42,183 nt of DNA, from positions 62,001 to 104,183 of the forward strand of contig JACRCW010000031.1 of the NCBI GenBank assembly GCA_016218805.1. The letters run 5' to 3'. Positions 2,250-22,429 of this stretch are shown here, piece by piece. The notes beneath the pieces are model-generated. The model saw only the letters and a list, made by a program, of their open reading frames with translations, was not told the DNA's origin and made no database searches. Each line of letters starts with the position of its first letter. The stretch's first letter is position 1. A program made the position numbers and the translations under genes. Source of the DNA: Deltaproteobacteria bacterium. Its GTDB lineage: Bacteria > Myxococcota > JACRCW01.

Positions 2250-2292
2250 CCGCGTAGGAGCCCGCGCGCCGCCGCGGGATGCGCCTGCGCGC

Positions 2293-4134: not shown

Positions 4135-4253
4135 CCGTCCTCGCGTATTCCCCGCACCGCGGGGAGATGCACCCTAGGGATCCCCCGTGGCGGGTTCAAG
4201 CCCGCGTGGACTAGCGTGGCTGCCCGGTGACGGGTGGCGACGGAGGCGGCGGC

Positions 4254-4439: not shown

Positions 4440-4444
4440 CCCGC

Positions 4445-7983: not shown

Positions 7984-8049
7984 GGTGTCACCTTCCCTGG
8001 TCCGGGTGCTGGCGATGGGTGTGACGCCGTCCGGTAGCCACGGGTTCCC

Positions 8050-8331: not shown

Positions 8332-8403
8332 TCCTCAGCAACCATCCTAGGTACCAACCCTATCGCAGCGGGCCAACTTCCCAGCTCCACACCTTGTCCT
8401 ACA

Positions 8404-9867
8404 TCACTTGGGCGGGGTGGGGGTGGCGTCTGCGGGCGGCGGTTCGGGTGGGGGCTGGGGTGCGCCGCCGTCTGCCGGAGCCGGTGGGGCGGGGTTTCTG
8501 GCCGCCTCCTCTGCTTTCAGGCGGGCCTCTTCCTCCGCTTTGGCCAGCGCTTCCTCCTCCGCCTTGATGCGGGCGTCCTCCTCCGCGGCCTTCTTGGCCT
8601 CCTCTTCCTCCTGCTTCTTGAGCAGTTCCAGCTGGCGCTGGTTCTCCGCCTCCTGCCGGATGAGCTGGTCCACCTGCGTGAGCATGCTGAGCGCCGGGTG
8701 GCGCGCCGGCATGGACGGCCCCTTCATCTTCACAAACGTGTTCAGCTCCACCTTGGCGTCTGCGTACTGGTTCATGTTGCGCATGTAGAGGTCCGCCAGG
8801 GCGTAGTGCGGCTCCGGCGCCTCGGGATGGATGCGGGCGGCGTTGAGGAGCGCTTCACGCGCGGGACCAAACTTCCCCTGCCCCTGCAGCGCCAGCCCCA
8901 GGTTGTGCAGCGCGGTGAGGTTCTTGGGGTCACGCCGGAGGATTTCCTCGTATTGTTCGGCGGCGCCGTTGAAGTCCCGCGCCTCCATGGCAAACATGGC
9001 CAGCTGAAAGCGCGCTTTGAGCTGGCTGCCGTCCAGTTCCACGGCCCGGCGCAGCGTGGTGAGCCCCGCGGCCTGGTCCTTCTCCGCCAGCAGGATCTCG
9101 CCCATGATGAACGTCATGTCGGCGTCATCCGCGCGGATCTTCAGGCCGCGCAGCGCCATCAGCTTGGCCAGCGACGTGTGCCGCTGCGCCAGGTAGGAGC
9201 GCGCCAGCAGGCGGTACGCGGGCAGGCTGCGGGGTTCGTGGGCCAGCGCTTCGCGCGTGAGCCTCTGCGCGGCGGCAGGGTCACCCTTGGTCAGCTCCAT
9301 CTCCGCCAGGCGCAGGCGCGCCGCCACCGCGCGCGGGTTCTTGTCCACCACGGCCTGGTACAGCTTGCGGACCTGCTCCTGCGGCGAACCCTTGCGCTCC
9401 AGCAGCGCGCCCAGGTTGGCCACGGCGTACTCCAGCGTGGGGTCCATGGAGATCGCCTTACGGTAGTGCTGCTCCGCCTCGTCCAGCGCGCCACGCTGCT
9501 CCGCCAGCGCGCCCAGGTTGTACAGCGCCACCGCCATCTTCGGGTCGGCGTTGGCCGCGCGCTGGTAGTGCTCCGCCAATTCGGCGGGTTGCGGTCCCTT
9601 CCCTTCCCACGCTTTCCACGCCTTGGATGCGTCGGCAAACGCGGCAATCGCTTCCGGGTTCTTGGTGGGCGGCGGCTTCTTCATGCCCTGGCTGAGGTCC
9701 TGCGTCTCCTCCGGCTTGGGCGCCTCGTCCGGGGCGGGCTCAGCCGGCTTGGGCGGCGGCGCCTCCTGCTTGGGCGGCGTGTCCTTGCGGGTCTCCGCCG
9801 CACCACCGCCGCAGGCGGTAAGACCAACAAACGCAACGGCGCACACGCCGCGGTGAAAGCGCGTCAC
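8404..9867 (-). CDS. gltE: TPR lipoprotein GltE (AglT)
   Basis: Lipobox 'LTAC', multiple TPR repeats, charged coiled-coil and Pro-rich tail; GTGA overlap with the gltD stop. Confidence 0.85.
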   Translation of the reverse strand: MTRFHRGVCAVAFVGLTACGGGAAETRKDTPPKQEAPPPKPAEPAPDEAPKPEETQDLSQGMKKPPPTKNPEAIAAFADASKAWKAWEGKGPQPAELAEHYQRAANADPKMAVALYNLGALAEQRGALDEAEQHYRKAISMDPTLEYAVANLGALLERKGSPQEQVRKLYQAVVDKNPRAVAARLRLAEMELTKGDPAAAQRLTREALAHEPRSLPAYRLLARSYLAQRHTSLAKLMALRGLKIRADDADMTFIMGEILLAEKDQAAGLTTLRRAVELDGSQLKARFQLAMFAMEARDFNGAAEQYEEILRRDPKNLTALHNLGLALQGQGKFGPAREALLNAARIHPEAPEPHYALADLYMRNMNQYADAKVELNTFVKMKGPSMPARHPALSMLTQVDQLIRQEAENQRQLELLKKQEEEEAKKAAEEDARIKAEEEALAKAEEEARLKAEEAARNPAPPAPADGGAPQPPPEPPPADATPTPPK

Positions 9868-12800
9868 GGGCCACCTCCGCCGGCTCCGCCTTCGCCCTCT
9901 TTGGGTTTTTCTTCGCTTTCAGGCTTGGCCTCCGCCTTGGGAACCAGCGGCGCCGCGGGCGGGGCCACCGCCGCCAGGTCCGCGCCCTCCTTGGGCAGTT
10001 CCACCACCAGGAAGTGCGGCTGCGGCGGCGGGACCGGCGGGACCGGCATCTTCTCCACCGCCAGCTTGGGGAACTCATCCGGCCGCTTCTCCTCCAGCAC
10101 GTCCAGGCATTTCTGCGACCACTGGTTGAACACGTGCAGTTCCTGGCTCTTCTGGATGCACAGCTTGAAGGCGCCCACCGCTTCCTCCTCAATGGGCGCG
10201 GCGTTGTCGGCCAGCTGGTCCTTGAAGATCTGTTTCTGGTCCGGCGTGAGCTCACGCGGCGGCGGTACCGACCGCAACGCGTTCATGTAGTGCAGGTTGA
10301 GATCGGCAATGCGGTAAAGCGCGGCAATCGCATATTCGGGGTCCTTGAGGCGCACCACGTCCATGTAGAACTTGCGCACCGCGTCCCGGCCCTTGGCTTT
10401 CTCCTTGATGGCGTTCTTGAACTTGTCCTTCTTCTTGAGGTCAGGCGTCTCCAGCTTCACCTTGCGGTATTCCGCGTATTTCACCTCGGCGTCCATGAAC
10501 GCCACGCGGGCGGCGGAGTTGGATCCCTCCGGGAGCCGCTTGTGCTTCTTGCGGTACTCAAGGGCCAGCTTCTCCAGGATTTCATCCCCCTTCTTGGCGC
10601 CGCGCGCGCGCTGCATGTCCACCGCCTTGAACCGCGCGTCCCACGCCTTCTCCGGGTCATCCTTGTAGTACTTCATGGCGTACTGCTCCAGGCACTCCAC
10701 CGCTTTCTGCCAGTTCTTGCTCTGCTCGTAGAGGCGGCAGATGGACATGGCTACCGCCGCGCCCTCCTTGGACTTGGGGTAATCCTTGAGGTACTTCTCC
10801 CGGTCCTCCACGGCGGTCTTGAGGTTGTTTCCCCCGCCGTAACCCTCCCGGTAGATGCCCGCGTTGAACAGTGCGTCCTTGCTGCGCGGGTCCTGCGGGT
10901 ACTTCTTGTAAAACCGCTCCAGGGCCTCCGCCGCCTTGTCCAGTTCAGCCACCTGCTCATGCGCCTCCGCCACGGAGAACAGCGCGTCCGGCACCAGCGG
11001 GCTGTCCGGGAAGTTGGTCACCAGTGCCTCACGGGTGCGCACCGCCTTGTCCGTCTTACCGGCCAGCTGGAAGTTGGCCGCCGCGTTGGCCAGCGCCTTG
11101 TCCGCCAGCGTGGACTTCCGGAACTCGTCGGCAAATGACAGGTAGGCCTTGGCGGCGTCCTCGTAGCGGCCGTTGCGCTGCAGCTTGCCAATGACCTTGA
11201 ATGAGCTGCTTTCCAACACCTCGGAGATGTTCTTGGCAAACTCCTCCTTGGCCATCAACGGCTTGTTCTTCTGGAACCCGCGCGCCGCGCCGTACAAGGC
11301 ATCCCAGTCTTCGCGCAGGTTGTGGACGTCCAGCACCAGGTTGGCGGCCTGCTCAGCGCGCGGGTGCTCTGGCGCGCCATCAATGACCTTGTTGAACCCG
11401 GCCACCGCCTCGTCAAAGATGTTGGAGTCATACTTGATGCGGGCAATCTTGTAGTTGCACTCCACGGCGATCTTGGGCTTGGAGAAGTATTTCAGGTAGT
11501 TCTCGCACGCCGTCACCAGCTTCTGCTTGGTCTCCGGGATGGGCTGCGGCTTGGTGGGGTCTGAATCCGTGGTCTTCTGCGCCTTCTTCTGCTTCTTCTC
11601 CCACTCCTGCATCAGCTCGTCGTATGCACGCACGGCCTCTTCGGCCGCCGCCTCACCCCACTTGCCCTTGGGGTCAATTTCCAGGACTTTGGCGTACTGC
11701 TCCGCCGCCTTCTCAAACTTCTCCAGCTTGTAGTTCAGCTCCGCGTAGAAGAACCGGATGTCATACGCGGGCTTCTTGTCCGGGAACAATTCCAGGTAAT
11801 CGCCGTACAACTCGTAGGCCAGCTCGTAGGTCTCGTCGTCACGGGTCTTGCGCGCCTCGTTGTGCCAGGTGGTGGCCAGGCTGCGCAGCGTGTTGTCAGA
11901 CAGGTCCTCCGCGTCCCGCAGGTCCGCCTCCACCTTCTGCCGCTTGGGGTCCTTGGGGTCCATGGCCGCCACGTGCGCGCGCACGCGCTGGAACTCGTCC
12001 GTCAGCAGCCGCGCCTGCTTCACCACCGCCTTCTTGTTGCCCATCCGGGACACGCAGGAAACAATGCGCCCCTGGTTGAACGGGTTGCGCGTGTTGTCCT
12101 TGTCCGCGTTGATCATCAGCCGGTACACCACCGCGGCTTCGCGGTCCTGGCCCTCGCCGTAATAGAGGTTCGCCAGCCGCTCAATCATCGCCTTGTAGTC
12201 GTCCCCGTCAGCCAGCGTCTTGAAGTCATCAAACGCCTTGGCCGGGTCACCAAAGTGGCTGTACACCGTGACGTAGTCCTTGCGCGCCTCCTTGGTGAGC
12301 ATGATCTTCTTGTCGCCCAGCTTGTCCGTGTCCAGCTGGGAATACAGGATGACCTCCTTGAACTTCTCCGCCGCGTTCTCCCAGCTGGTCTGGTTGTAGT
12401 AGCACCAACCCTGCTTATAGACGGCGTAGCCGTAGACCTTGCTCTCCTCAAACGCCGCCGCTTTCTGGTACGCCTGCAGCGCATTGTCGATCTTCTTGTT
12501 CTCAAAATGGTACTCGCCGAACGCCAGGTACCCGTCAGCAACAAACGGGCTCTTGGGGAAGGTCTGGATGAGTTCCCGGAAGACCTCCAGCGCTTCCTTG
12601 TGCTTTCCGCCGTCCCAACGGGAACGTCCCAGTGCGTACATCACCTGGTCCAGCCGTTCGAACTTCTTGTACTTCTTGATGATCTCCTCGAAGATCAAAT
12701 CCGCATCCGCGGACCATTTCTTCGCCTTTCCCAGCAGTTCCTCCTTCTGCTTCTCCACCTGCTTCTGCTTCTTGGTATCGCCGGCCTCGCGCGCGGCCAC

Positions 12801-13247
12801 AATGTCATCATCCAGCTCCATGCCGGAGAAGAAGAAATGCTGTGAATTCTCCTCAAACAACTCCGCCTTCTGGAACAGGATGGCGGGCATTTCCTCCGGC
12901 GGCGGGCCCAGCTTGATGATCTGGTCCAGGCTCTGCACCTGTTCGTCGCGCTTCTTCTGGACCTGGAACTCCGTCCTGCGCCGGAACTGCTCCACGCTGA
13001 TGCGCGGGCCCTGCACCTGCGCGGCGTCCTTCTTGCGGACCTCTTCTTTCACCACTTCGGGAACGCGGGACTCGCGCTCCTTGCGTGCTTTCTCCGCCTC
13101 CTCGTCAGCCAGGCGCTTGGCTTCCGCGCTGTCCTTCTCGCCCCGCCGCGACGCCGGCGCCTTCTTGTCCTTCTCCGCCGCCGCTGCCGCCCCCGCCACG
13201 CTCAGCGCGCCCAGCACCAGCGCGGCCGTCCACATCGTCCGTGTCAC
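9864..13247 (-). CDS. gltD: Large TPR protein GltD (AgmU)
   Basis: Signal peptide, ~1130 aa of TPR repeats ('YAVYKQGWCYYN', 'AALYRIA'); synteny with gltE/F/G. Start GTG 13247 overlaps the gltC stop; alternatives are 13256 and 13235. Confidence 0.85.
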   Translation of the reverse strand: MTRTMWTAALVLGALSVAGAAAAAEKDKKAPASRRGEKDSAEAKRLADEEAEKARKERESRVPEVVKEEVRKKDAAQVQGPRISVEQFRRRTEFQVQKKRDEQVQSLDQIIKLGPPPEEMPAILFQKAELFEENSQHFFFSGMELDDDIVAAREAGDTKKQKQVEKQKEELLGKAKKWSADADLIFEEIIKKYKKFERLDQVMYALGRSRWDGGKHKEALEVFRELIQTFPKSPFVADGYLAFGEYHFENKKIDNALQAYQKAAAFEESKVYGYAVYKQGWCYYNQTSWENAAEKFKEVILYSQLDTDKLGDKKIMLTKEARKDYVTVYSHFGDPAKAFDDFKTLADGDDYKAMIERLANLYYGEGQDREAAVVYRLMINADKDNTRNPFNQGRIVSCVSRMGNKKAVVKQARLLTDEFQRVRAHVAAMDPKDPKRQKVEADLRDAEDLSDNTLRSLATTWHNEARKTRDDETYELAYELYGDYLELFPDKKPAYDIRFFYAELNYKLEKFEKAAEQYAKVLEIDPKGKWGEAAAEEAVRAYDELMQEWEKKQKKAQKTTDSDPTKPQPIPETKQKLVTACENYLKYFSKPKIAVECNYKIARIKYDSNIFDEAVAGFNKVIDGAPEHPRAEQAANLVLDVHNLREDWDALYGAARGFQKNKPLMAKEEFAKNISEVLESSSFKVIGKLQRNGRYEDAAKAYLSFADEFRKSTLADKALANAAANFQLAGKTDKAVRTREALVTNFPDSPLVPDALFSVAEAHEQVAELDKAAEALERFYKKYPQDPRSKDALFNAGIYREGYGGGNNLKTAVEDREKYLKDYPKSKEGAAVAMSICRLYEQSKNWQKAVECLEQYAMKYYKDDPEKAWDARFKAVDMQRARGAKKGDEILEKLALEYRKKHKRLPEGSNSAARVAFMDAEVKYAEYRKVKLETPDLKKKDKFKNAIKEKAKGRDAVRKFYMDVVRLKDPEYAIAALYRIADLNLHYMNALRSVPPPRELTPDQKQIFKDQLADNAAPIEEEAVGAFKLCIQKSQELHVFNQWSQKCLDVLEEKRPDEFPKLAVEKMPVPPVPPPQPHFLVVELPKEGADLAAVAPPAAPLVPKAEAKPESEEKPKEGEGGAGGGGP

Positions 13248-15298
13248 TGTCGGCAACCCTTGGAAAGCGTGTATTCGTACGTGCCCAGCTCGTCGCGCCA
13301 GTACTCGCCGTCAAACGGCCAGTACAGTTCCGTGTCCTCCACCGCCGTGGAGTACCGGTACGCGCCCAGCTTGGTCCCCTGCTTCTCCCCCCGGAGGCTG
13401 GCCTCCAACCCTTCCTTCTCCCGCTTGATGATCTCAAACTTGATGCGGAACAACTGGCTGGACAGGCTCTTGAGTTCGTCCCGCTCCGTCTCCAGCTTGG
13501 CCCGCGCAATCTTGCCCGCCTCCGTCACGGTGGCCTCGCGGTGCTTCTTGACCAGGTCCAGCAGTTCCTTCTGCAGCGGCGCGTTCTGCAGCGCCTGCGC
13601 CTTCTGGATCTTCTGCTCCTCCGCCTCCAGTTCACGCGCGCTGGCCGCCTTGAGCGCCAGGTTCTTGTCCCCGCGGGCCAACTTCACCAGCCGCTGGGTG
13701 AGCGCCGTGGCATTGCGCGATCCCTCCAGCTTCTTGAGCAGCGCGTAGTAGTCCTCGGGCGTCTTGGCGTCCTTGGTCAGCTTGTCCAGCTCGTCACGCA
13801 GCGGGCCGTATTGACCCTCAAACTCGTCCAGCACGCCCAGCGCTTCCGGATAGCGGCAGTTCTCGTAGTACGTCACCGCCTTGAGGATGAGGCTCTCCGG
13901 GAAGTACTCGTTGACAAAGAACGGCGCGTGGATGGTGACCAGGTTCCCCAGCGCTTTCTCGTAATCCGCCAGCCGGAAGTACGCCCAACTGCTCTCAAAC
14001 AGCGCGTCCAGCCAGCCCCCGGAATCACGCGAAATGCGGTTGTAGTAGAAAATGGCCGCGCGGAACTGCCGGAATGCGTAGTGCGTGCGCGCCAGGCTGA
14101 AGAACGCTTCTTCGCGCAGCGGGTGGTTCTTCCACTTGCCCGCCTTGGTCAGCTTCACCACCTCGCGGAAGCCCACCACCGCTTTTTCGAATTCCTGCAA
14201 TTCGTAATTGCACACCGCGCCCAGGTACACCGCGCGCAGGCGCAGGTTGCTCTCCGGCTTCACCTGGGCGGCGTGCTCCACGCACTTCTGCAGGGCGTCT
14301 TTCACGTCTGCCACCAGCGCGCGCTGCGGCGGCGGCGGCTCCTCCACCGGCGCGGCTTCCTTCTTCTTGGGTGCGGGCGCCGGCGCAGGCTTCTCCTCCT
14401 CCTCCACCTTGTCACCAATGCCGCCAAACTCCAGGGCCTCCTCTTCCTTCTTGGGCGCGGGGGCCGGCGCCGGCGGGGGCTCCTCCTTCTTGCCCTTCTG
14501 CGCCTTGCCGTTCTTGTCCTTGCCCTTGCCTTTGTCCTTCTCCTTGGGCTTGGCCTCCTCCAGGTCATCCAGCCCAAAGTCCAGCCCGTCATCACCGCCG
14601 CTGCCCGCGCGCGGACCGGGCGCGTCCCCCGCGCCGCCGCCCGCATCATCCGTGTCAAACTGCAGGTCCTCGCCGCCCTCGCCCGCCGGCTTGGCCTCCA
14701 CGCCCTCATCCGCGGTGGCTTTCTGGAAATACAGCTTGCCCAGCAGGAAGTGGAACTCGTCCGCGTACTTCTCCGGCAGGTCCCCCACGGCATAGCGCGC
14801 AATCTCCTCCACCACCACGCCCTGGTCCGCGGCCTTGCGGCTGATGAAAAACAGCCATTCCTTGCTGGTCTTGTAATACTTGTGTTTCTCGCCCTTCTGC
14901 AGGACGGCCACAAACTGCGCCAGGGACGAATGATACAACCCCATGCGGTACAGCGCCTTGGCCAGCAGGTACTCGGACTGCTCGTGGTACTCCTTGGCCT
15001 TGGGGTCCTTCAGCACGCCGTGGAACGCCACCGCCGCCGCGCCCCAGTCATCCTTGGCCATCAGGTCCTGCGCGCGGTCAAAGGCCTGTTTGGACGGCGT
15101 GGTCACCTCAATGGCGGTGGTGTTGTCCCCCAGCCCAATGTCAATCTCCAGGCCGCCGCCTGCGTTGTCCTCCGCGGCGTCCTTCTGGGGCGGTGGTTTG
15201 GCGTTCTTACCCCCGTCCTTGGGCGGCGCGGCATGCAGCACCCCCACGCCGGCCAGCGCGGCAAGACAGCAGGCAAACGCGAGGCGCGTGCGGTCCAT
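13244..15298 (-). CDS. gltC: TPR protein GltC
   Basis: Signal peptide; 'YLLAKALYRMGLYHSSL', 'WLDALFESSWAYF', 'ALGNLVTIHAPFF…YFPES', C-terminal 'YWPFDGEYWRDELGTYEYTL'. Confidence 0.9.
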   Translation of the reverse strand: MDRTRLAFACCLAALAGVGVLHAAPPKDGGKNAKPPPQKDAAEDNAGGGLEIDIGLGDNTTAIEVTTPSKQAFDRAQDLMAKDDWGAAAVAFHGVLKDPKAKEYHEQSEYLLAKALYRMGLYHSSLAQFVAVLQKGEKHKYYKTSKEWLFFISRKAADQGVVVEEIARYAVGDLPEKYADEFHFLLGKLYFQKATADEGVEAKPAGEGGEDLQFDTDDAGGGAGDAPGPRAGSGGDDGLDFGLDDLEEAKPKEKDKGKGKDKNGKAQKGKKEEPPPAPAPAPKKEEEALEFGGIGDKVEEEEKPAPAPAPKKKEAAPVEEPPPPQRALVADVKDALQKCVEHAAQVKPESNLRLRAVYLGAVCNYELQEFEKAVVGFREVVKLTKAGKWKNHPLREEAFFSLARTHYAFRQFRAAIFYYNRISRDSGGWLDALFESSWAYFRLADYEKALGNLVTIHAPFFVNEYFPESLILKAVTYYENCRYPEALGVLDEFEGQYGPLRDELDKLTKDAKTPEDYYALLKKLEGSRNATALTQRLVKLARGDKNLALKAASARELEAEEQKIQKAQALQNAPLQKELLDLVKKHREATVTEAGKIARAKLETERDELKSLSSQLFRIKFEIIKREKEGLEASLRGEKQGTKLGAYRYSTAVEDTELYWPFDGEYWRDELGTYEYTLSKGCRQ

Positions 15299-15304
15299 GG
15301 AGCC

Positions 15305-16060
15305 TCACTTCCGGCGGCCGACGGAGGTTTCCTTGTCAAAGAACGGCGGAACATAGAAACCCACGCCAAACATGGCCGTCACCTGGTTCTGGATGTTGGA
15401 GATGATGGTGGGGCCCCATTGCGGGTACGCGCTGCCGCGCAGTTCCCCGCGCAGCACCATCCAGTCAAACAGGAACACGCGGCTGCCCATCCCCACGTGC
15501 AGCTGCGGGTGGATGAACCACTGGCTGCTGTCCACCGCCAGGCCGGCGCCGCCCAGCACAAACACGTCGTAATGCATGATCCACTCGGAGAAGATGGACA
15601 TCTTCCCGTAGATGGGGCTGAGTTGCAGGTTGGCCCACGCATTGCCGAAATACCGCGCATCCGCGGGAATGGCGCTCTTCTGCTGCCTGAGGAAAATCAC
15701 GGGTTCCAACACCTGCCGGAACGGCGCGCCGGAAAGCCCGCCCTCCACCGCCAGGCCCTCCATGATGTGGAACGTCCCGGCCAGGCCGCCGTGGTAGTAG
15801 CGGTAAAACGCGTCATTCAGGGACACGCCCACCCAGGGATAGATTTCAAAACGCAGCCGCTTGATGAACTTCTTGCCCTGCACGGCCTTGATGCGGTCAT
15901 CCAGCGGCTTGAGCGCCACTTCGGTGGGGCCGCCCGCCGCCGCCGCCTTCTGGGCTTCCTTGGACGTGTCCGCATCCGCCGAGGTCCCCTCCTGGGCAAC
16001 CACCGCCGGTCCCGCAAGCGCCAGACCGAGCACTGCCGACACCACCCTGGACGTTCTCAC
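15305..16060 (-). CDS. Outer-membrane beta-barrel protein, GltA/GltB family
   Basis: Signal peptide; 'DRIKAVQ…RFEIYP…SLNDAFY', 'SPIYGKMS…HYD'; immediately upstream of gltC. GltA versus GltB cannot be decided by eye. Confidence 0.85.
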   Translation of the reverse strand: MRTSRVVSAVLGLALAGPAVVAQEGTSADADTSKEAQKAAAAGGPTEVALKPLDDRIKAVQGKKFIKRLRFEIYPWVGVSLNDAFYRYYHGGLAGTFHIMEGLAVEGGLSGAPFRQVLEPVIFLRQQKSAIPADARYFGNAWANLQLSPIYGKMSIFSEWIMHYDVFVLGGAGLAVDSSQWFIHPQLHVGMGSRVFLFDWMVLRGELRGSAYPQWGPTIISNIQNQVTAMFGVGFYVPPFFDKETSVGRRK

Positions 16061-16106
16061 CGCTGCTCCATGTGCGGGAAACCCCGCCGATTGAAATGGA
16101 ATGATT

Positions 16107-17843
16107 TCACCTGCACTTGGGCGCTCCGTCAGCGGCCCGCCCCAGGAAGCTCACCCGCACTTCGGAGCCCTGCGGCGGGATGTCACTGCCCAGGAACTTC
16201 ACCTGGCTGCACCCGGAAATCATGGCAAACCCGTGGCTGCACTGCGTGGCGTCTCCCGTGCAGCCATTGCAGTCCCGGAAGGCCTGGCTGGTGCGGTCCG
16301 TCCACGGCGGAATGGCCTCCCAGTCTCCGCCCGCGGACTTCTTCACCTCAACCACCAGTTGCGTGGGGTCCGGCGCCACCTCGCCCAGCGAGAGCACGTC
16401 GGTCTCGTTGATGAGATTGGCAATGTCAATCATCGTGGACTTGTACGTTTGCGCGCAGATCGAATCGAGAATGTAGTTGCCCGGCTCCATGCCGCGCGCG
16501 ACGGCGACGTAGCGGTTCCCGCGGTCGGCGGTGCAACAGGGCGGGTTGACCACGCCTCCATCGCCAAGCTGGCTGTTGGTGAGCGTGCCGCAAAACTGGT
16601 TGGCGACTGCGGAGCCACACAATCGCGCCTGGATTGAGTTGCCATACACCGGCGAGCACACCAACTCGGGAGCCGCGTTGGCCGCACTCCCGTTGCAGCG
16701 GCAGTCCCCCGCCGAGAAATCACCGCGCGCCGGCCCTGTCTTGTTGCCGCCCACGATGGCCGCCATGCTCACCAGGGACGCTTCAGGCTTCAGCGACCGG
16801 AGGAAACCCACGTATTCCGAGGTATTCACGAGGAACTGGGTTTCGGTGTAGCACTCCTTGGCGGATGTATAGTCACTCGTGCGCGGGCCGCCGTCGGGAG
16901 AGTCCAAGTTGGAGCAATCCTCCTCGTCCGAGAGAAGAATGACCACCAGCTTCTTCTCGGGACCGGGCACCGGCTGCCCATCGGATCCAGTCAGGCACGC
17001 GCCGCCATCCGCTTTGAGGCAATCCGCGGGACGCAGGAATTGGGTGAGATCCGCACTACAGGAAGGATCCGCGCGGAGGGTGCTGGCGGTTAGGAAGCCG
17101 CGAATGCTGCCCAGCCCTTCCTCGACCGGGCTTCCGCAGACGCTGACCGACCGCACCGCGTCCCTGAAACGCTGCGAAATGGTCGCGATGCTCCCGTCGC
17201 TGGGACGGATGATCTTGTTCGCCTGCCCGGGAATCGGCTGTAGGCACCCGCGTTGGGGCAGCGGCGAACGGCCACCCGGAAACTCAAAGGACGGCGGGTT
17301 GTTGGGACAGAAGTACGTCCCATCGGTATGCTGAAAACCCTCCAAATCCCGCTGGTCCGTTGTAATGATGCCAATCTGGAAATCATTGTCATACAGCTGG
17401 AGCCGCTCAATGAAGCCGCAGTCGTCGTAGATGGCCTTCATGGCGGGGCCGTTGGGCAGGCTCCCCCAGCTCTCCGGCGCGTACCCCCGTCCCGCACCCG
17501 TCGTCATGAACACCTTGAGGTCGTCCACCGCGGAGGAGTGCAGCGCCAGGTCGCATTCACCGCCCTGCTGGTAGGCGGAGGCGTTGCGCGCCAGGTTGTC
17601 CTGCTCCTCCGTCATGGACCCGGAGTTGTCTATGACAAACAGGATGTCCGCAGCCCGGTTGATGTCCACCTTCTTGGGAATCTGCACCGTGCGGCACCCG
17701 GACGGCATGGGCGCGTCAAACACGTGGGACTGGCCGAACAGCGGCAATTCGCAGCCGCCGCTGCACGCGGGAACCGACGCGAGGGCACCCGCGCACAGCG
17801 CAAGGGCCAAGCCGGCGGAACGGTTGAATGTCCGGGTCTTCAC
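16107..17843 (-). CDS. cglB: Cys-rich vWA-domain lipoprotein, CglB-like adhesin
   Basis: AAGGAG RBS; lipobox 'VPAC'; MIDAS 'DILFVIDNSGSMTEEQ'; 'GIITTD', 'LSDEEDCS', many cysteines; heads the glt operon. Confidence 0.65.
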   Translation of the reverse strand: MKTRTFNRSAGLALALCAGALASVPACSGGCELPLFGQSHVFDAPMPSGCRTVQIPKKVDINRAADILFVIDNSGSMTEEQDNLARNASAYQQGGECDLALHSSAVDDLKVFMTTGAGRGYAPESWGSLPNGPAMKAIYDDCGFIERLQLYDNDFQIGIITTDQRDLEGFQHTDGTYFCPNNPPSFEFPGGRSPLPQRGCLQPIPGQANKIIRPSDGSIATISQRFRDAVRSVSVCGSPVEEGLGSIRGFLTASTLRADPSCSADLTQFLRPADCLKADGGACLTGSDGQPVPGPEKKLVVILLSDEEDCSNLDSPDGGPRTSDYTSAKECYTETQFLVNTSEYVGFLRSLKPEASLVSMAAIVGGNKTGPARGDFSAGDCRCNGSAANAAPELVCSPVYGNSIQARLCGSAVANQFCGTLTNSQLGDGGVVNPPCCTADRGNRYVAVARGMEPGNYILDSICAQTYKSTMIDIANLINETDVLSLGEVAPDPTQLVVEVKKSAGGDWEAIPPWTDRTSQAFRDCNGCTGDATQCSHGFAMISGCSQVKFLGSDIPPQGSEVRVSFLGRAADGAPKCR

Positions 17844-18064: not shown

Positions 18065-18826
18065 ATGGTCACCACCACCCAACCCGATCCCGCCGGCCAG
18101 GAGGCCGCGTTCAATGACGTCAGTCCCCGCGCCGCCGCGCTGGCTCCCGCGCTCGTCCGGCGCCGCGGTGATGTCCAACTTGCGCTGGACAACGTCAACA
18201 CCGGACTGGCTGCCCTTGAGTCCCGGAGCGCGGACCTGCTGGCCAAGTGGCCCGCGGCTCGGGTGGACGCGCTGGCCGGCGCGCGTGAGCTTGCGCTGGC
18301 GGCCGTGTTCGCGTCCTCACGCGCCAACCAGCTTGACGTCCGCGAGAAAGACCTGACGGCGCTCATCTCCCAGATGTACGCGGCGAGGGACAAGACGTTT
18401 GCGGTGATGGACATGTGTGCCACCTGGGAACTCATCCCGGCAGAGCGCGTGGGCAAGATCCGCGAAGGCAAGGGCGCCATTGACGGCGGGCAGGACCTGG
18501 TGGACGGGATGGCGCTGCTGCGGGAGTACGGCGCGGCGCTGCAAGGCAAGACGCCGCTCACGCCGGCGTTCCTGACGGACACCGAAGCGCTGGGCAACCG
18601 GGTGGTGCAGGAACTCAAGAAGGAAGGCGGCCGCAAGGACGTCAACCTGACCGCCAAGGACGCGGCAGACCTGGCCAACCGCATCTGGACGCTGCTGTGT
18701 GACGCCCATTCCGAACTCCGCAAGGCGGGCTTTGAGTTGTGGGGCGACGCCCTGGACGACCACGTTCCCCTGCTGCAAAGCCGGGTGGGCGGCGGGCGAC
18801 GCGCGGCACCTGGCAAGCCCTCCTGA
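18065..18826 (+). CDS. Hypothetical, predicted helical protein (253 aa)
   Basis: GGAGG RBS, strong GC3 bias; no signal peptide or recognisable catalytic motif; directly followed by the 42-bp repeat array. Confidence 0.8.
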   Translation: MVTTTQPDPAGQEAAFNDVSPRAAALAPALVRRRGDVQLALDNVNTGLAALESRSADLLAKWPAARVDALAGARELALAAVFASSRANQLDVREKDLTALISQMYAARDKTFAVMDMCATWELIPAERVGKIREGKGAIDGGQDLVDGMALLREYGAALQGKTPLTPAFLTDTEALGNRVVQELKKEGGRKDVNLTAKDAADLANRIWTLLCDAHSELRKAGFELWGDALDDHVPLLQSRVGGGRRAAPGKPS

Positions 18827-18853
18827 CCCGGTATCACACCCTCTACGACATCC

Positions 18854-19030
18854 AGCCTTCCCGGGAGACTGGGGAAGTGCCGGAGGGTGGCTCGGACCCA
18901 CCGCTTGGCACTGATCCAGTGCCGGAGGCATTGCTTTGAGCCACGGTTGGGCAGTTCCCCAGTGGAAAGGGGTGGGTGCGAGCCTTCCTCCGGGACTGAC
19001 CCAGTGGCGGAGGGTGGCTGGGAGCCAGGC
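18854..19030. repeat. Degenerate 42-bp palindromic tandem repeat array (4 units plus a partial unit)
   Basis: Units start at 18854, 18896, 18939, 18981 and 19023; consensus AGCC-N7-GGCACTG-N3-CAGTGCCGGAGGGTGGCT-N3. AGTG recurs at 18876, 18918, 18961 and 19003. Confidence 0.8.
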
Positions 19031-19092
19031 GCTGGCCAAGGAGAACACCGGCGCCTGGGGTAGGGTGTTGCTGCGCCCGGGAGGAGGCAACC

Positions 19093-20268
19093 ATGCTCAA
19101 GCGCATCAGCCTGCAGAATTTCAAGAGTTTTGGCATACGGCAGGACGTGCCGCTTGCCCCGCTCAGCGTGCTGGTGGGGGCCAACAACACGGGCAAGTCC
19201 TGTTTCCTCAGCCTGGCCCGGTTCCTCCACAACGCCCTGCGGGGCGGGGCGCTCAAGCGCGAGGGCGGCGTGGAGGCGGTGCTCCACCGCCCACCCCACG
19301 GCAACGGCGAGTTGGTGGTGGGATGGGCCACCGAACAGGGCGAGTATGAGAGCCGGTCCTCGCTGGAGGGGGACATCCGCCAACTTGAGGAGCGGCTTGT
19401 CCACCACGATTTGGGTCCAGCATGGGAGGAAGACGGCGGGTTCCTGAGGTTCCGCGTGAAGGCGGTCATCCAGCCGCCGCCGTCAGCGAGGAAGCTGTTT
19501 GAAGGACTCCGCTGGGCCAGGACTCTCGCCGAGCAAGGCCACGAGGAGATGAAGCCGTTTGAGGCTTTGTGGTCGCCCTGGGTCAACAGCCGTCTGCTGC
19601 GGCTGGACACGGCGGCGCTTGGCAGCGACACGAATGCTATTGACGACGAGTGGTTCCCCGGCCCGGTGCTCAAGGACAACGGGCAGGGACTGGCCGCCGT
19701 GATTGCGCGCTGGGATGAGGAGGAACGGGAGCCAACCGTGGACGGCCGCGCGCTGCGCAGCGCCGACCCGCGCCGTGCGGCGGAGTTCAGGCGTTTTGTG
19801 ATGGAGACCATCCCGGAGGTCCGCGCGGTGCACGCCAGGGCTCGTCCGGACGGGGGTTGGAGCCTGGTGGTGGAGCAGCAGAATGGTCAGGAGTTCGCGG
19901 GGAGCCAGGTGTCGGATGGCGTGCTGGCGACCATGGGGTTCGCCGCGCACGTGTTTGCGGCGCCTCGCGGTGGGGTGCTGTTCATTGAGGAACCGGAGAA
20001 CCACGTGCACCCGCTGCGGCTGCGCGCGCTGGTGGACATGTTCCGCCGTGCGGTGCGGGAACGCGGGTGCCAGGTGTTGCTGTCCACGCATTCGCCGGTG
20101 CTGCTGAACGAGTTCCGTGACGAGGCCGACTGTGTGCTGTTGTTCCGGCGGTCCGCGGAGGGGACGCGCGTGGCACCGCTGACGGAGGTGCCCTGGGTGC
20201 GGGAGGAACTGGCCACCGCGCTTCCCGGTGACCTCATGCAGGCGGGGTTCTTTGCCGAGGCGCCCTGA
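19093..20268 (+). CDS. ABC-type ATPase (AAA_15/AAA_21-like)
   Basis: 'ISLQNFKSF', Walker A 'GANNTGKS', signature 'SDG', Walker B/D-loop 'IEEPENHVHP', H-loop 'STHSP'; GGAGG RBS. Confidence 0.9.
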   Translation: MLKRISLQNFKSFGIRQDVPLAPLSVLVGANNTGKSCFLSLARFLHNALRGGALKREGGVEAVLHRPPHGNGELVVGWATEQGEYESRSSLEGDIRQLEERLVHHDLGPAWEEDGGFLRFRVKAVIQPPPSARKLFEGLRWARTLAEQGHEEMKPFEALWSPWVNSRLLRLDTAALGSDTNAIDDEWFPGPVLKDNGQGLAAVIARWDEEEREPTVDGRALRSADPRRAAEFRRFVMETIPEVRAVHARARPDGGWSLVVEQQNGQEFAGSQVSDGVLATMGFAAHVFAAPRGGVLFIEEPENHVHPLRLRALVDMFRRAVRERGCQVLLSTHSPVLLNEFRDEADCVLLFRRSAEGTRVAPLTEVPWVREELATALPGDLMQAGFFAEAP

Positions 20269-20269
20269 A

Positions 20270-20869
20270 ATGCTCCGCCTGGGCATTGCCACCGAGTGTG
20301 ACGACTACGACGGCGAGGTTTTTCGATTCCTGGTGGAGCGTCTGCTGGCGCGTCCTGTCGAGCGGTGGCAGACCGAGATCCACTTCTACGGCGACCGCTC
20401 CGTGAAGAAGTTGGCTGGCGCGTACATGCGCCTGGCGGCAAGGAGCGGTGTGCGGGACTTTCTGTTCGCCGTGGACAATGACGGCGGGGCCCGGCGCCGG
20501 CCGGAACACGCGCCGGACCATGACGTGGACGCGCAGGCCGCAGACGAAAAGGACGGGTGCCGCTGGTGCTGGCTGGAGCGGGCCACGGCAGGCGCTGTGG
20601 CGGATGTCCGCTGTGTGGTGGTGCCGGTGCAGACACTGGAGACCTGGTTGCTGGTGGCGCGCGGGGATGCACTGCACCCGGCCCCCGAAAAGGTCTTCCA
20701 CCGGTCCGCACTCAAGAAGCAGTTCTTTGGCCCCCACCCCTTGCCGCCAACCGAGCAACGCACCCAGGTGGCCCTGGCTGCCCTGGAACTTCCGGGCGGC
20801 ATCGCGCGGCTTGGGGAGTTGGCCAGTTTCAGGCAGTTCGAAGTCCAATTGGAGCCGTGGCGGGGATAG
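20270..20869 (+). CDS. TOPRIM-like / DUF4276-like protein (partner of ATPase 1)
   Basis: ATG 1 nt after the ATPase stop; N-terminal strand + 'ECDDYD', 'AVDND' (DxD) and 'PVQTLETWLL' motifs. Confidence 0.7.
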   Translation: MLRLGIATECDDYDGEVFRFLVERLLARPVERWQTEIHFYGDRSVKKLAGAYMRLAARSGVRDFLFAVDNDGGARRRPEHAPDHDVDAQAADEKDGCRWCWLERATAGAVADVRCVVVPVQTLETWLLVARGDALHPAPEKVFHRSALKKQFFGPHPLPPTEQRTQVALAALELPGGIARLGELASFRQFEVQLEPWRG

Positions 20870-20920
20870 GAGGGCGGCGGCGACGCCCACTTCTGGCTGC
20901 GAGCGCCAAGAAGTGGTTGG

Positions 20921-21847
20921 ATGCGGAGCATGATTGCCAGCGTGAGCATCCGGAACGTGCAGTGCCTCAGGCGCCTTGAGGTGCCTCTGCGGCCGCTCAC
21001 CGTGCTGGTGGGCAACAACGACACCGGGAAGTCCACGTTCCTGCGGGCGTTGTGGCACCTCAGCACTGGAACGGCGCCAACCCGGTCGTTCGGGGCGGAA
21101 CCTCGTCAGGCGCTTGTCTTGGAGGCCGCCCTGGGCGGCGACCGCTTCCCGATTGCGATCGGAGCAGCGCCCCCTATCCCTTATCGACGAGTCCTGGTCA
21201 CGCAGCTGCCCGCCAACGGTGTGCAGCTCGTAGGTCAAGGGTTCTACGACAACCAGGGCGTGCCGGAGCTGGGCGCGAACGGCAGCAACGTCCCGGCGCT
21301 TCTGGACCACTTCTTCCGGCACGACGAGCCGCGCTGGAAGGATTTCAAGAATGCGCTGAAAGCCCAGGTGCCCGGTGTGCAGGACGTGCAGATTGCCACA
21401 CCGGACCCGTCAACCCGCCGCGTGGATCTGGTGATTGAGAACGGTCAGCGCATGCCCGCCGACCAGGCGTCCACCGGCGTGCGGGCGCTCATTTTCTACC
21501 TGGCGCTGGCGTATCACCCCACGCCCGCGCCGCTCATCCTCATTGAAGAGCCCGAGACTGGCCTCCACCCCAAGCGCCTGGAGGATGTGATGCGCCTCCT
21601 GCGGGCCATTGCGGAGGGCCAGCACGGGAGCCCAGCTCAGGTCGTGCTGTCGACGCACTCGCCGTACCTGTTGGACTGCGTGGACCTTGAGAAGGACCAA
21701 GTCCTGGTCTTCCGGCGTCTCCCCGACGGCACACGCACCGCGGAGCCGGCGGACACGGCACGCCTCAAGGTCTTCCTGGACGAGTTCAAGCTGGGAGAGG
21801 TCTGGTTCAACCGCGGCGAGGACGGCCTCGTGAAAGAGGGCGTGTAG
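20921..21847 (+). CDS. Compact ABC-type ATPase (AAA_15/AAA_21-like)
   Basis: 'SIRNVQCL', Walker A 'GNNDTGKST', 'ASTG', 'IEEPETGLHP', 'STHSPYLLD'. Start 20921 or 20930. Confidence 0.9.
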   Translation: MRSMIASVSIRNVQCLRRLEVPLRPLTVLVGNNDTGKSTFLRALWHLSTGTAPTRSFGAEPRQALVLEAALGGDRFPIAIGAAPPIPYRRVLVTQLPANGVQLVGQGFYDNQGVPELGANGSNVPALLDHFFRHDEPRWKDFKNALKAQVPGVQDVQIATPDPSTRRVDLVIENGQRMPADQASTGVRALIFYLALAYHPTPAPLILIEEPETGLHPKRLEDVMRLLRAIAEGQHGSPAQVVLSTHSPYLLDCVDLEKDQVLVFRRLPDGTRTAEPADTARLKVFLDEFKLGEVWFNRGEDGLVKEGV

Positions 21848-21850
21848 ACC

Positions 21851-22429
21851 ATGCACATTCTCGGCGTCGGTGATGGCCCCCGCGACCAGGCCATCATGGA
21901 ACCGATTCTCTGCACCCTCGCCGGCATGCGGGTGAGTGTTGAGTTCAAGACATGGAAGGCCCTACGCGTCGGTGGGTACGCCAAAGCGATGAAGTTCGTG
22001 ATTCGCGAGGTGTTCGACGCGGGAGCCAGGTACGGCGGAGTAGTGGCGTGGGCGGACGATGACGGCGTGTCGGAAAACCGGCTCAAGCAGCTCAGGGATG
22101 GGCGGAACCACAGCGCTCCTCAGTTCGCCGTGAAGGCGGCCGTTGGCGTGGCGGTTCCCCACGCCGAGGCATGGCTACTGGATGATGCCGTCGCCATTCG
22201 CCAGACGCTTGGCCTGGACAGCACCGTGGACGTCCCCCGAGTTACCGAGTGCGCGTATCCGAAGACCACCCTGGACGCCCTGGTGAAACAAGCCTACGTC
22301 GGTGAGGACGTCATGGATGCGCTCCCTCGGATTGCAGAGGCGCTTGACCCCACGCGAATGACCCACGCCAAACGGACGGGGTTCGAGACCTTTCAAACGG
22401 ACTTCCAGGAGCAGTTCGGCCGTCCCTAA
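21851..22429 (+). CDS. TOPRIM-like / DUF4276-like protein (partner of ATPase 2)
   Basis: 'GDGPRD', 'WADDD', 'AVPHAEAWLLDD', 'YPK'; starts 3 nt after the ATPase stop; more A/T-ending codons than the glt genes. Confidence 0.7.
   Translation: MHILGVGDGPRDQAIMEPILCTLAGMRVSVEFKTWKALRVGGYAKAMKFVIREVFDAGARYGGVVAWADDDGVSENRLKQLRDGRNHSAPQFAVKAAVGVAVPHAEAWLLDDAVAIRQTLGLDSTVDVPRVTECAYPKTTLDALVKQAYVGEDVMDALPRIAEALDPTRMTHAKRTGFETFQTDFQEQFGRP

What the first reader, a model, noticed from the sequence alone, without database searches (positions are those of the whole stretch)
18065..19030. Candidate new module: unknown helical protein followed by a 42-bp palindromic array with dyads every ~21 bp
Seen: 27 nt after the stop of a 253-aa unknown gene, four degenerate units: U1 AGCCTTCCCGGGAGACTGGGGAAGTGCCGGAGGGTGGCTCGG, U2 ACCCACCGCTTGGCACTGATCCAGTGCCGGAGGCATTGCTTT, U3 AGCCACGGTTGGGCAGTTCCCCAGTGGAAAGGGGTGGGTGCG, U4 AGCCTTCCTCCGGGACTGACCCAGTGGCGGAGGGTGGCTGGG, then a fifth AGCC at 19023. 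Units have a dyad at CACTG-N3-CAGTG and another at GGCT-N3-AGCC, i.e. symmetry every two helical turns; U4 pairs at 14/18 positions. U1 and U3 also cross-pair (ACTGGGGAAGTGCC with GGCAGTTCCCCAGT, 13/14), so U1-U3 could fold into one nested hairpin. There are no unique spacers. Inference: a phased binding array or structured RNA/ssDNA partner for the upstream protein, or a leader controlling the ATPase/TOPRIM genes that start about 60 nt downstream. I know no described system matching this.
Basis: partly seen in the sequence, partly recalled or inferred. Interest (0 to 1): 0.85.

Follow-up and report, generated by a model that had tools for sequence, protein, structure and literature searches.

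The report
Unknown helical protein with phased palindrome array
A worn four-unit, 42-bp palindromic repeat array right after an uncharacterised helical-protein gene is real, and relatives of that gene in five other myxobacterial genomes also lie beside arrays with the same 21/42-43-bp spacing, which points to an undescribed gene-plus-repeat pairing whose mechanism is still open.

Summary
Window 18854-19030 carries four degenerate 42/43-bp units. Identity at lag 42 is 0.50 against 0.29±0.04 in shuffles (0 of 2000 reach it), and dyads recur about every 21 bp. The array is non-coding and matches no Rfam family.

- **Second copy.** The same genome holds a better-kept copy (same 21-nt leader, five units) in front of a sugar-transferase gene, with no copy of the protein nearby.
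- **Family association.** The 253-aa protein belongs to a large unannotated, all-helical family. In 14 of 30 loci examined (six genomes), a tandem array of period 20-23, 41-44 or 85 bp lies within about 650 bp, on either side of the gene.
- **Background.** In two of those genomes such arrays are otherwise rare. In this genome and one other they are common, and most lie away from the family.

The protein is acidic with no recognisable DNA-binding fold, and the array sequence is not conserved between 60%-identical orthologues.

The closest known architecture is the REP/BIME cluster; membership fails on copy number and RAYT linkage. I rate it a new variant of a known kind, of moderate to high interest.

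The parts
18065..18826 (+). Gene of the 253-aa all-helical protein ('p253'), a member of a large unannotated family
   Evidence: GC3 is 0.85. No Pfam, NCBIfam, PHROGs or PADLOC family matched. 713 representative proteins match at E<=1e-3. The AlphaFold2 model has pLDDT 93.9 and 11 helices.
18828..18850 (+). Leader motif (CCGGTATCACACC...GACA) directly after the stop codon
   Evidence: It is shared with the second array copy on contig C44. The 11-mer core occurs exactly twice in the genome. The 21-nt pattern with <=1 mismatch is found in G000 and, with one mismatch, in one other of 401 phylum genomes. A related core, CCSGTAHC, follows the stop of two other paralogues.
18854..18895 (.). Unit 1 (42 bp)
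18896..18938 (.). Unit 2 (43 bp), containing the perfect 17-bp palindrome at 18907-18923
   Evidence: The matching unit of the C44 copy is also 43 bp.
18939..18980 (.). Unit 3 (42 bp). Its first half cross-pairs with unit 1.
   Evidence: I2: 26-nt arms, 81% complementary
18981..19022 (.). Unit 4 (42 bp), a near-complete hairpin centred at 19000
   Evidence: I3
19023..19030 (.). Terminal partial unit (AGCCA...). The C44 copy ends the same way.
19025..19058 (.). Small inverted repeat after the array (11-nt arms, 91% complementary)
   Evidence: I5
19093..20268 (+). AAA_21/AAA_15 ATPase (best PADLOC model HEC-01A), 62 nt after the array
20228..20869 (+). 213-aa partner ORF with no family match
20921..21847 (+). 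Second AAA_21/AAA_15 ATPase (HEC-01A-like)
21851..22429 (+). 192-aa partner, HEC-01B-like (E 9e-8)

Best explanation
The array is a real, non-coding, degenerate tandem array. It is one half of a recurrent pair: genes of this uncharacterised helical-protein family lie beside tandem arrays whose units span about two or four helical turns (21-22 or 42-43 bp, sometimes 85 bp) and carry one or two dyads.

My best reading is that the array is the nucleic-acid partner of the protein. It would be a phased, dyad-bearing DNA platform recognised by spacing and shape more than by base sequence. Copies of such arrays in front of other genes would bring those genes under the same influence; here that means the ATPase operon 62 nt downstream, and a second copy in front of a sugar-transferase gene on contig C44.

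Shown: the array's reality and significance, the second copy, the recurrence of the gene-array pairing across six genomes, and its specificity in two genomes where arrays are otherwise rare.

Inferred: that the protein touches the array at all, that DNA rather than RNA is the form that matters, and any regulatory effect.
For: 1. Periodicity and dyads are significant.

2. A paralogous copy of the whole element lies at G000:C44:6131-6375. It has the leader plus five 42/43-bp units at 87-91% identity, with unit-by-unit correspondence including the 43-bp second unit. It sits about 80 nt before a Bac_transf gene.

3. p253 homologues sit beside arrays as follows:
- G000: 3 of 4 paralogues.
- G006: 3 of 7.
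- G162: 4 of 8; G072: 2 of 3; G032: 1 of 1.
- G179: 1 of 1.
- Total: 14 of 30 loci.

4. Background with the same TRF settings:
- G006: 1 weak period-42 array (plus two of period 21) in 346 kb.
- G072: none of period 22, 41-44 or 85 in 400 kb.
- G001: none in 400 kb, in a genome without the family.
- G145: none in 400 kb, in a genome with a single array-less orthologue.

5. The G179 array next to the closest homologue (E 3e-86) has the same design, two dyads per 42 bp. The second dyad varies as GGGT/ACCC, GGCT/AGCC and GGTT/AACC.

6. In G006 the short motif is kept while the spacers vary.

7. In G162 two loci share both array and gene.

8. Three G000 paralogues, only about 25-30% alike as proteins, have a related core (CCSGTAHC) within a few nt of their stop codon. 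The C73-type array recurs at C1:10928-11126, about 220 nt before another AAA_21 ATPase.

9. Motifs occur in both orientations at strict 21-bp phasing, which fits duplex DNA better than an RNA motif.
Against: - The protein model shows only generic helical bundles. Foldseek against PDB gives 0 matches at E<=1e-3. The best VIA-align score is Z 8.6 over 97 residues, inside the range the tool calls common for helical proteins.
- The protein's pI is 5.8 (core 5.1).
- Arrays next to 60%-identical orthologues share no sequence.
- The array lies upstream in some genomes and downstream in others.
- 16 of 30 loci have no array, including all 5 loci from the Myxococcaceae-like family.
- In G000, 55 of 62 arrays of period 22, 23 or 42-44 lie outside called genes, and their neighbours are diverse. 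Only 3 lie next to the family.
- G162 also has about 11 such arrays in 394 kb.
- Paralogues that were duplicated together with their array are not independent counts.
- There is no covariation above shuffles among the 9 units (score 0.100 against 0.147; 472 of 500 shuffles are at least as high).
Confidence: 0.4

Rival explanations
1. A REP/BIME-like element. The array is one of many selfish or structural palindromic tandem repeats of this lineage. It would act, if at all, in cis, for example as a hairpin block that stabilises or attenuates the transcript between the upstream gene and the ATPase genes, or as a site for nucleoid proteins. The protein family lies near arrays only because both gather in accessory or defence DNA.
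For: - Genome-wide TRF of G000 shows sharp non-triplet peaks of array period at 22 (20 arrays), 42 (11), 43 (13) and 44 (3). None occur at 40, 41, 46 or 47.
- 55 of 62 such arrays lie outside called genes.
- Ten pairs of array loci share a repeat unit; nine look like one family at two sites (the tenth joins two contig ends).
- A Y1_Tnp (RAYT-like) gene at C54:78377-78601 has a 42-43/85-bp array about 490 nt away. Its palindrome matches arrays at the C44 contig end and the C100 contig start.
- Window units alternate in orientation as in BIMEs.
- Both strands fold far better than shuffles (z -5.05 and -4.54; 0 of 200 shuffles each).
- 4 of 20 AAA_21 ATPase ORFs have arrays upstream.
Against: - In G006 and G072 arrays are rare in random samples yet lie beside 3 of 7 and 2 of 3 family genes.
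- The window family has only 2 loci in the genome, far below REP copy numbers.
- No RAYT lies next to it.
Confidence: 0.25
2. A two-part duplicative or mobile cassette. Gene and array move or duplicate together. The array would be the cis site for recombination or mobilisation by a factor encoded elsewhere, and the protein would be cargo or a helper.
For: - The family is multi-copy: 9 matches in G162, 7 in G006, 4 in G000 and 3 in G072.
- Several copies lie at contig ends or on short contigs.
- Neighbours are unrelated from locus to locus.
- L061 and L064 share array plus gene.
- In G179 the array plus gene sit between casA and casB of a type I-E operon.
- Arrays also occur alone (C44, C1).
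Against: - No transposase or recombinase domain was found in the protein or next to it.
- I did not identify terminal inverted repeats or target duplications.
- In G179 the gene's stop overlaps the casB start, which looks like an integrated operon member.
- The family is not found in the plasmid or phage collections.
Confidence: 0.2
3. RNA-level partner. The array is co-transcribed with the gene and acts as structured repeat RNA, either processed units in the manner of type III toxin-antitoxin repeats or a scaffold or sponge for the protein.
For: - The array is close to, and could be co-transcribed with, the gene. No terminator-like site lies between stop codon and array (the scan's one terminator-like hit lies inside the gene at 18717-18729), and no promoter-like site was found.
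- The predicted fold is strong.
- Units of 42-43 nt carry hairpins.
- Defence-type neighbours are present.
Against: - Both strands fold about equally well.
- Motifs occur in both orientations within one array.
- Arrays lie on either side of the gene.
- There is no covariation above shuffles.
- No Rfam match was found.
- The protein has no known RNase fold.
Confidence: 0.12
4. A frameshifted remnant of a protein with 14-aa repeats.
For: 42 bp equals 14 codons. Long spurious ORFs cross the region on the minus strand.
Against: - Unit 2 is 43 bp in both the window and the C44 copy.
- All three plus-strand frames are interrupted within the array.
- Sister arrays have periods of 22 and 43.
- The array lies between two well-defined genes.
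Confidence: 0.01

Closest known systems
REP/BIME clusters with REP-associated tyrosine transposases (RAYT); REPINs
   Same: - Short imperfect palindromes in intergenic DNA, regularly spaced and in alternating orientation. The abstract of PMC2817692, seen in the search listing, describes BIMEs in this way.
- Family-specific repeats flank a dedicated gene and are also dispersed elsewhere.
- One array family in this genome lies beside a Y1_Tnp gene.
   Different: - The window family has 2 loci, not hundreds.
- Units abut with strict 21/42-43-bp phasing.
- The associated gene is an all-helical protein with no Y1/HUH match.
- No GTAG or CGTC tag is visible in the units.
Plasmid partition centromeres such as F sopC (tandem 43-bp repeats, each with an inverted repeat, downstream of sopB); recalled, not checked in a paper
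   Same: Tandem units of about 43 bp, each with a dyad, directly downstream of the gene of a candidate binding protein.
   Different: - No ParA or ParB homology.
- No HTH-like structural match.
- Chromosomal, multi-copy loci.
- The family is not found in the plasmid or phage collections.
Iterons of theta-replicating plasmids (about 22-bp direct repeats in helical phase beside rep); recalled
   Same: Repeats with 21-22-bp phasing beside a 250-300-aa protein gene. In G006 the motif is conserved while the spacers vary.
   Different: No Rep winged-helix fold or family was found. There is no replicon context. Many arrays contain inverted units.
Type III toxin-antitoxin loci (ToxIN: tandem 36-nt RNA repeats before the toxin gene); recalled
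   Same: A stand-alone pair of tandem repeat array and single gene, multi-copy, in defence neighbourhoods.
   Different: - The array may lie after the gene.
- The protein is not ToxN/AbiQ-like.
- No terminator-like site lies between array and gene.
- Units occur in both orientations.
Mycobacterial interspersed repetitive units (MIRU); recalled
   Same: Intergenic minisatellites of 40-100 bp within operons, at low copy number per family.
   Different: MIRUs are not palindromic or phased to helical turns. To my recollection they are not tied to one protein family.

Membership tests
REP/BIME | Imperfect palindromic unit of about 20-40 bp in intergenic DNA | tested here: met
   Dyads recur about every 21 bp. 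67.9% of cells pair in register against 30-43% when slid. The array lies between genes.
REP/BIME | Regularly spaced units in alternating orientation | tested here: met
   Half-units alternate as X and X'.
REP/BIME | High copy number of one family (>100 per genome) | tested here: not met
   The nhmmer unit profile hits only the window and C44 loci. The leader core occurs exactly twice.
REP/BIME | Cognate RAYT (Y1 transposase) flanked by the same repeat | tested here: not met
   The two Y1_Tnp matches in G000 lie on C54 and C163. The C54 gene is flanked by a different array family.
REP/BIME | GTAG or CGTC tetranucleotide tag at one end of the palindrome (feature taken from the title and abstract of PMC3733652 in the listing) | tested here: not met
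   Units start AGCC and end GGCT; I read no such tag in the unit listing.
Type III toxin-antitoxin (ToxIN-like) | Tandem direct repeats immediately upstream of, and on the same strand as, the toxin gene, with a terminator between | tested here: not met
   The array lies downstream of the 253-aa gene. No terminator-like site lies between the array and either flanking gene; the scan's one hit lies inside the gene at 18717-18729.
Type III toxin-antitoxin (ToxIN-like) | Toxin of the ToxN/AbiQ family | tested here: not met
   No PADLOC or Pfam family matches the 253-aa protein.
Partition centromere (sopC/parS-like) | ParB-type centromere-binding protein and ParA ATPase encoded beside the repeats | tested here: not met
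   No Pfam family matches the 253-aa protein. The neighbouring ATPases are AAA_21/AAA_15, not ParA.
Partition centromere (sopC/parS-like) | Tandem repeats, each with an inverted repeat, downstream of the binding-protein gene | tested here: met
CRISPR array | Conserved repeats separated by unique spacers of similar length | tested here: not met
   The units abut one another and there are no unique spacers.
Any Rfam RNA family | Match at the family's gathering score | tested here: not met
   0 matches in the whole window at gathering score. The best E-value in 18700-19200 is 0.67, far below the gathering score.
HEC-01-like ATPase pair (downstream genes) | AAA_21-type ATPase followed by a small partner matching HEC-01B | tested here: inconclusive
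   Both ATPases hit HEC-01A models (E 2e-34 and 6e-34). Only the second partner hits HEC-01B (E 9e-8); the first partner has no hit.

The most novel reading that the evidence does not exclude
Proteins of this unannotated helical family and tandem arrays phased at two or four helical turns form a previously undescribed two-part genetic system in Myxococcota. It would be comparable in logic to RAYT-REP, centromere-binding or repeat-RNA systems, but built from a different protein fold. The protein would recognise (or help generate) arrays by spacing and dyad structure rather than by sequence. The pair would be recruited into defence loci: between casA and casB of a type I-E operon, and in front of AAA_21 ATPase pairs.
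Probability: 0.35. Interest if true: 0.8.

Novelty: new variant of a known kind. Interest (0 to 1): 0.62.

Why it matters
If the pairing is functional, it gives a first handle on a protein family with hundreds of representative clusters and no annotation.

It also defines a class of bacterial tandem repeats whose period is set by the DNA helix (22 and 42-44 bp, with none at neighbouring non-triplet periods). That would be a testable case of structure-defined rather than sequence-defined recognition.

The link to defence genes (a type I-E cas operon and AAA_21 ATPase pairs) could reveal a new way such cassettes are regulated or moved.

If the arrays turn out to be only REP/BIME-like passengers, the result still extends that class to Myxococcota. 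In that case they would have unusual low-copy, array-only families.

Tried and rejected
- **TRF on the window.** It found nothing.
- **Rfam.** No match at gathering score or at E-value threshold.
- **DNA search of 40 relatives.** Only three short matches of 20-31 nt at E 0.007-0.009, which I took as chance.
- **Leader pattern in metagenome contigs.** Two stretches matched; both read as ordinary sequence without arrays.
- **The search for related loci.** A 3-row alignment gave one locus (a Byssovorax MAG) with no array.
- **PDB by sequence profile.** One hit at E 0.15, which I ignored.
- **ESM Atlas.** Only unnamed clusters.
- **Possible distant family members.** I tested the genes upstream of the arrays on C10 and C59 with hhalign. 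Probabilities were 2.1% and 0.6%, against 95-97% for the true paralogues, so I rejected the idea.
- **Shared GTGAC/GGTCAC core among array families.** 7 of 48 families against 4.5 expected, so not supported. Only G-run words such as ACCCC are enriched (18 against 4.3).
- **Second copies of two G006 arrays.** None at E<=0.01.
- **Expression.** No RNA holder was listed. The laid contigs give no information on variation; only the probable source run spans the array.
- **Promoter and terminator scan.** No promoter-like sites and one terminator-like site, inside the gene.
- **Literature.** Three searches and passages of PMC2700814 turned up no description of 22/43-bp arrays or of this protein family in myxobacteria. 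This is not proof that none exists.
- **Complex prediction.** Not used, because there is no protein-protein claim.
Full report
**The observation**

The 253-aa gene (18065-18826) has the codon-position GC pattern of a real gene (GC3 0.85). After its stop codon come 27 nt and then four units starting at 18854, 18896, 18939 and 18981. A fifth AGCC sits at 19023.

- Unit 2 is 43 nt, not 42.
- The array is too worn for Tandem Repeats Finder (0 rows).
- The repeat finder sees unit pairs of 77% and 70% identity at spacings 127 and 85, plus inverted repeats with arms of 62 nt (74% complementary) and 26 nt (81%, 73%).
- Identity at lag 42 is 0.504 against 0.285 ± 0.038 in dinucleotide shuffles. 0 of 2000 shuffles reach it at lag 42, and 1 of 2000 at any lag from 5 to 99.
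- In the unit-hairpin register 67.9% of 162 cells pair, against 29.9-42.9% with the partner slid by 1-3 columns.
- As single strands both strands fold far better than shuffles: z -5.05 and -4.54, with 0 of 200 shuffles each.
- There is no covariation above shuffles among the nine available units (0.100 against 0.147; 472 of 500 shuffles at least as high). The dyads are real, but selection on pairing is not shown.
- No Rfam family matches.
- A coding remnant is unlikely. The second unit is 43 bp in both copies of the element, and all plus-strand frames are interrupted.

**A second copy in the same genome**

The window is G000:C155:62001-104183. By several indications this is an uncultured myxobacterium:
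- an OMP_myx_plus domain nearby;
- Atlas clusters that are mostly Myxococcota;
- earlier notes, which I did not check.

A DNA search of the genome found a 42-bp tandem array at C44:6131-6349, with 4.5-5.2 copies at 87-91% identity.
- It is preceded by the same leader. The 11-mer core occurs exactly twice in the genome.
- It ends with the same partial unit.
- The units correspond one to one with the window's, including the 43-bp second unit. The whole roughly 200-bp element was therefore duplicated and then diverged.
- A profile of the units finds only these two loci.

The C44 copy lies about 80 nt before a Bac_transf sugar-transferase gene. No homologue of the 253-aa protein is nearby. The element was not found in 40 relatives. 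Its leader was not found in the other 400 genomes of the phylum, apart from one 1-mismatch hit. A metagenome scan gave only two chance matches.

**The protein**

No Pfam, NCBIfam, PHROGs or PADLOC family matches it. It is nevertheless not an orphan:
- 713 representative proteins match at E≤1e-3, and 341 at ≤1e-10.
- A word-based search found three relatives (62%, 63% and 32% identity) besides the query itself.

The AlphaFold2 model is confident (pLDDT 93.9, pTM 0.78) and all-helical, with 11 helices.
- Foldseek against PDB gives no match at E≤1e-3.
- The exhaustive VIA-align search gives only generic helical bundles. The best is Z 8.6 over 97 residues, within what the tool itself calls common for helical models.
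- The protein is acidic: pI 5.8 overall, 5.1 without its basic tail. The family median is 6.85 over 44 sequences.
- It is not found in the plasmid or phage collections.

**Do homologues have periodic flanks?**

A profile search found the family in 29 of 201 genomes of the phylum. It is multi-copy in G162 (9 matches), G006 (7), G000 (3 here, 4 by my own hmmsearch) and G072 (3). I examined 30 loci. Arrays of period 20-23, 41-44 or 85 bp lie within about 650 bp in 14 of them.

| Genome | Loci with an array | Position and period |
|---|---|---|
| G000 | 3 of 4 | Window; C164 (period 21-22 ×5-6 downstream, plus a 23-bp array upstream); C73 (period 21, three forward units, a palindrome, five reverse units) |
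| G006 | 3 of 7 | Downstream, period 21, 21/42 and 41 |
| G032 | 1 of 1 | Upstream, 42 × 6.4 |
| G179 | 1 of 1 | Upstream, 42 × 4.5 |
| G162 | 4 of 8 | Upstream, 43 × 5.6, 85 × 6.7, 85 × 8.2, 43 × 10.7 |
| G072 | 2 of 3 | Upstream, 43 × 8.4 and 21/43 |

No such array was seen at any of the following:
- the fourth G000 paralogue;
- four G006 loci;
- four G162 loci;
- one G072 locus at a contig end;
- the Byssovorax locus;
- all five loci of the Myxococcaceae-like family f11, where the gene is single-copy.

Two of the 14 (the window and L052) were recognised by eye and autocorrelation rather than by TRF.

**Controls for background**

In G000 a uniform detector applied to the 260 nt after each of 3699 called genes gives these results:
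- 84 genes (2.3%) score ≥0.50 and 291 (7.9%) score ≥0.45.
- The window gene ranks 67th (0.508) and the C73 paralogue 22nd (0.723).
- The C164 paralogue scores 0.492 and the C133 paralogue 0.33.

Random samples, analysed with the same TRF settings, gave the following counts.

| Genome | Family status | Sample size | Arrays of period 20, 22, 23, 41-44 or 84-88 | Other |
|---|---|---|---|---|
| G162 | 9 matches | 394 kb | 7 | Three of period 21, one of period 127 |
| G006 | 7 matches | 346 kb | 1 (a weak 42) | Two of period 21 |
| G072 | 3 matches | 400 kb | None of period 22, 41-44 or 85; one of 23, one of 20 | Two of period 21 |
| G001 | Same family as G000, no homologue | 400 kb | 0 | — |
| G145 | Single array-less orthologue | 400 kb | 0 | — |
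| G002 | No homologue | 278 kb | 1 (period 41) | — |

In G006 and G072 the arrays are therefore rare, yet they lie beside the family's genes. The association is not a by-product of array abundance.

Caveats: paralogues duplicated together with their array (L061 and L064) are not independent, the samples are small, and two further controls could not be fetched.

**Shared architecture without shared sequence**

The array next to the closest homologue (G179, E 3e-86) shares no sequence with the window's array but has the same design.
- Its units are 42 bp, with a 17-bp perfect palindrome at the unit junction and a second dyad about 21 bp away.
- The second dyad appears as GGGT/ACCC, GGCT/AGCC and GGTT/AACC in successive units.

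In G006 a short motif is kept while the spacers vary. In G162 the units are 90-97% alike, which indicates recent expansion.

In G000 three paralogues have a related core (CCSGTAHC) within a few nt of the stop codon. I defined this motif after seeing it.

The C73-type array recurs at C1:10928-11126.
- Its motifs sit at offsets 0, 21, 42 and 84 (forward) and 93, 114, 135, 156 and 198 (reverse).
- It starts inside the stop codon of a Uma2 endonuclease gene.
- It lies about 220 nt before another AAA_21 ATPase gene.

**A wider class of arrays**

G000 as a whole shows sharp peaks of tandem-array period at 22 (20 arrays), 42 (11), 43 (13) and 44 (3). There are none at 40, 41, 46 or 47.
- 55 of 62 such arrays lie outside my crude gene calls, which cover 74% of the genome.
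- Their neighbours are diverse.
- Ten pairs of array loci share a repeat unit; nine look like one family at two sites (the tenth joins two contig ends).

One family lies about 490 nt from a Y1_Tnp (RAYT-like) gene on C54 and recurs at the end of C44 and the start of C100. Of 20 ORFs similar to the window's ATPases, 4 have an array within 1.2 kb, always upstream (window, C10, C59, C1). On C10 the order is unknown 306-aa gene, then a 21-bp × 7 array, then the ATPase, which mirrors the window. That upstream gene is not detectably related to the family.

**Context of the homologues**

Neighbours differ from locus to locus. They include YceI, PfkB, an ABC permease, a DinB-type polymerase, a glycosyltransferase, UDG, OmpA, a response regulator, a beta-CASP nuclease and HsdM.

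In G179 the array and gene lie between casA and casB of a type I-E operon, and the gene's stop overlaps the casB start. In the window the genes after the array are two AAA_21 ATPases with small partners. Their best PADLOC models are HEC-01A and, for one partner, HEC-01B. I could not confirm a TOPRIM domain.

**Reading**

I put the 'protein partner' reading first, at 0.4. Three things favour it:
- the pairing;
- the conserved architecture despite sequence turnover;
- the orientation-free 21-bp phasing.

It remains inference, and four things count against it:
- the acidic, bundle-only fold;
- the variable side of the array;
- the many arrays without the gene;
- the array-less loci.

The rivals are a REP/BIME-like class with incidental linkage (0.25), a duplicative gene-array cassette (0.2) and a repeat-RNA partner (0.12). 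None is excluded by my data, and they are not mutually exclusive.

Membership in REP/BIME fails on copy number, RAYT linkage and tag. The architecture (regularly spaced palindromes in alternating orientation) is still the closest known.

No RNA data exist for this organism in the runs offered, and the available contigs show no variation. Three literature searches and one paper's passages gave no prior description. This does not prove there is none.

Noticed in passing
L058 (G179:C9:124100-129400), 139-4874: A type I-E cas operon has a 42-bp × 4.5 tandem array and a close homologue of the 253-aa protein inserted between cse1/casA and cse2/casB. The inserted gene's stop overlaps the casB start.
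   Followed up: partly
whole genome G000 (for example C133:98016-98367, C87:35345-35630, C108:3339-3543, C163:42444-42736): Intergenic tandem arrays show sharp period peaks at 22 and 42-44 bp, with none at 40, 41, 46 or 47. There are about 48 sequence families, many of them palindromic. G-run words such as ACCCC are enriched (18 of 48 families against 4.3 expected).
   Followed up: partly
G000:C54:78377-78601 (-) and C54:79087-79313: A Y1_Tnp (RAYT-like) gene lies about 490 nt from a 42-43/85-bp array. The array's palindrome recurs in the arrays at the end of contig C44 and the start of C100.
   Followed up: partly
L054 (G000:C1:7000-16000), 3697-4730, minus strand: A Uma2 endonuclease gene has its stop codon inside the first unit of a 21-bp array. 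The array has five forward units, a palindrome and five or six reverse units. About 220 nt later comes an AAA_21 ATPase gene.
   Followed up: partly
G000:C10:4680-5802, minus strand: An unknown 306-aa gene is followed by a 21-bp × 7 array (GGCCCGGAA motif), about 60 nt of spacer and an AAA_21 ATPase. This is the same layout as the window, with an unrelated upstream gene.
   Followed up: partly
window 19093-22429: Two consecutive pairs of AAA_21/AAA_15 ATPase plus small partner, best matching the candidate defence models HEC-01A and HEC-01B. The first partner (20228-20869) has no family match at all.
   Followed up: partly
G000:C164:29335, C73:24003 and 22 other places; also L059, L061 and L063 of G162: A 21-nt hairpin (GGCGGGGG-CTTGT-CCCCCGCC) occurs 24 times (≤2 mismatches) in G000, 17 of them outside called genes. 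It is also seen near the family's genes in G162, so it may be a small REP-like family shared between the two genomes.
   Followed up: partly
G000:C164:29480-29700 and C59:37530-37740: A long inverted-repeat element of about 210 nt, with G/C-run arms, appears to be present at both places, upstream of a paralogue of the protein and between an array and an ATPase gene. I saw this by eye only.
   Followed up: no
window 6007-17843, minus strand: A run of minus-strand genes encodes an FHA/TonB_C protein, several very large TPR proteins, an OMP_myx_plus beta-barrel protein and a 578-aa protein with no family match. GC content drops to 0.59-0.65 over 10-18 kb against about 0.70 in the flanks.
   Followed up: no
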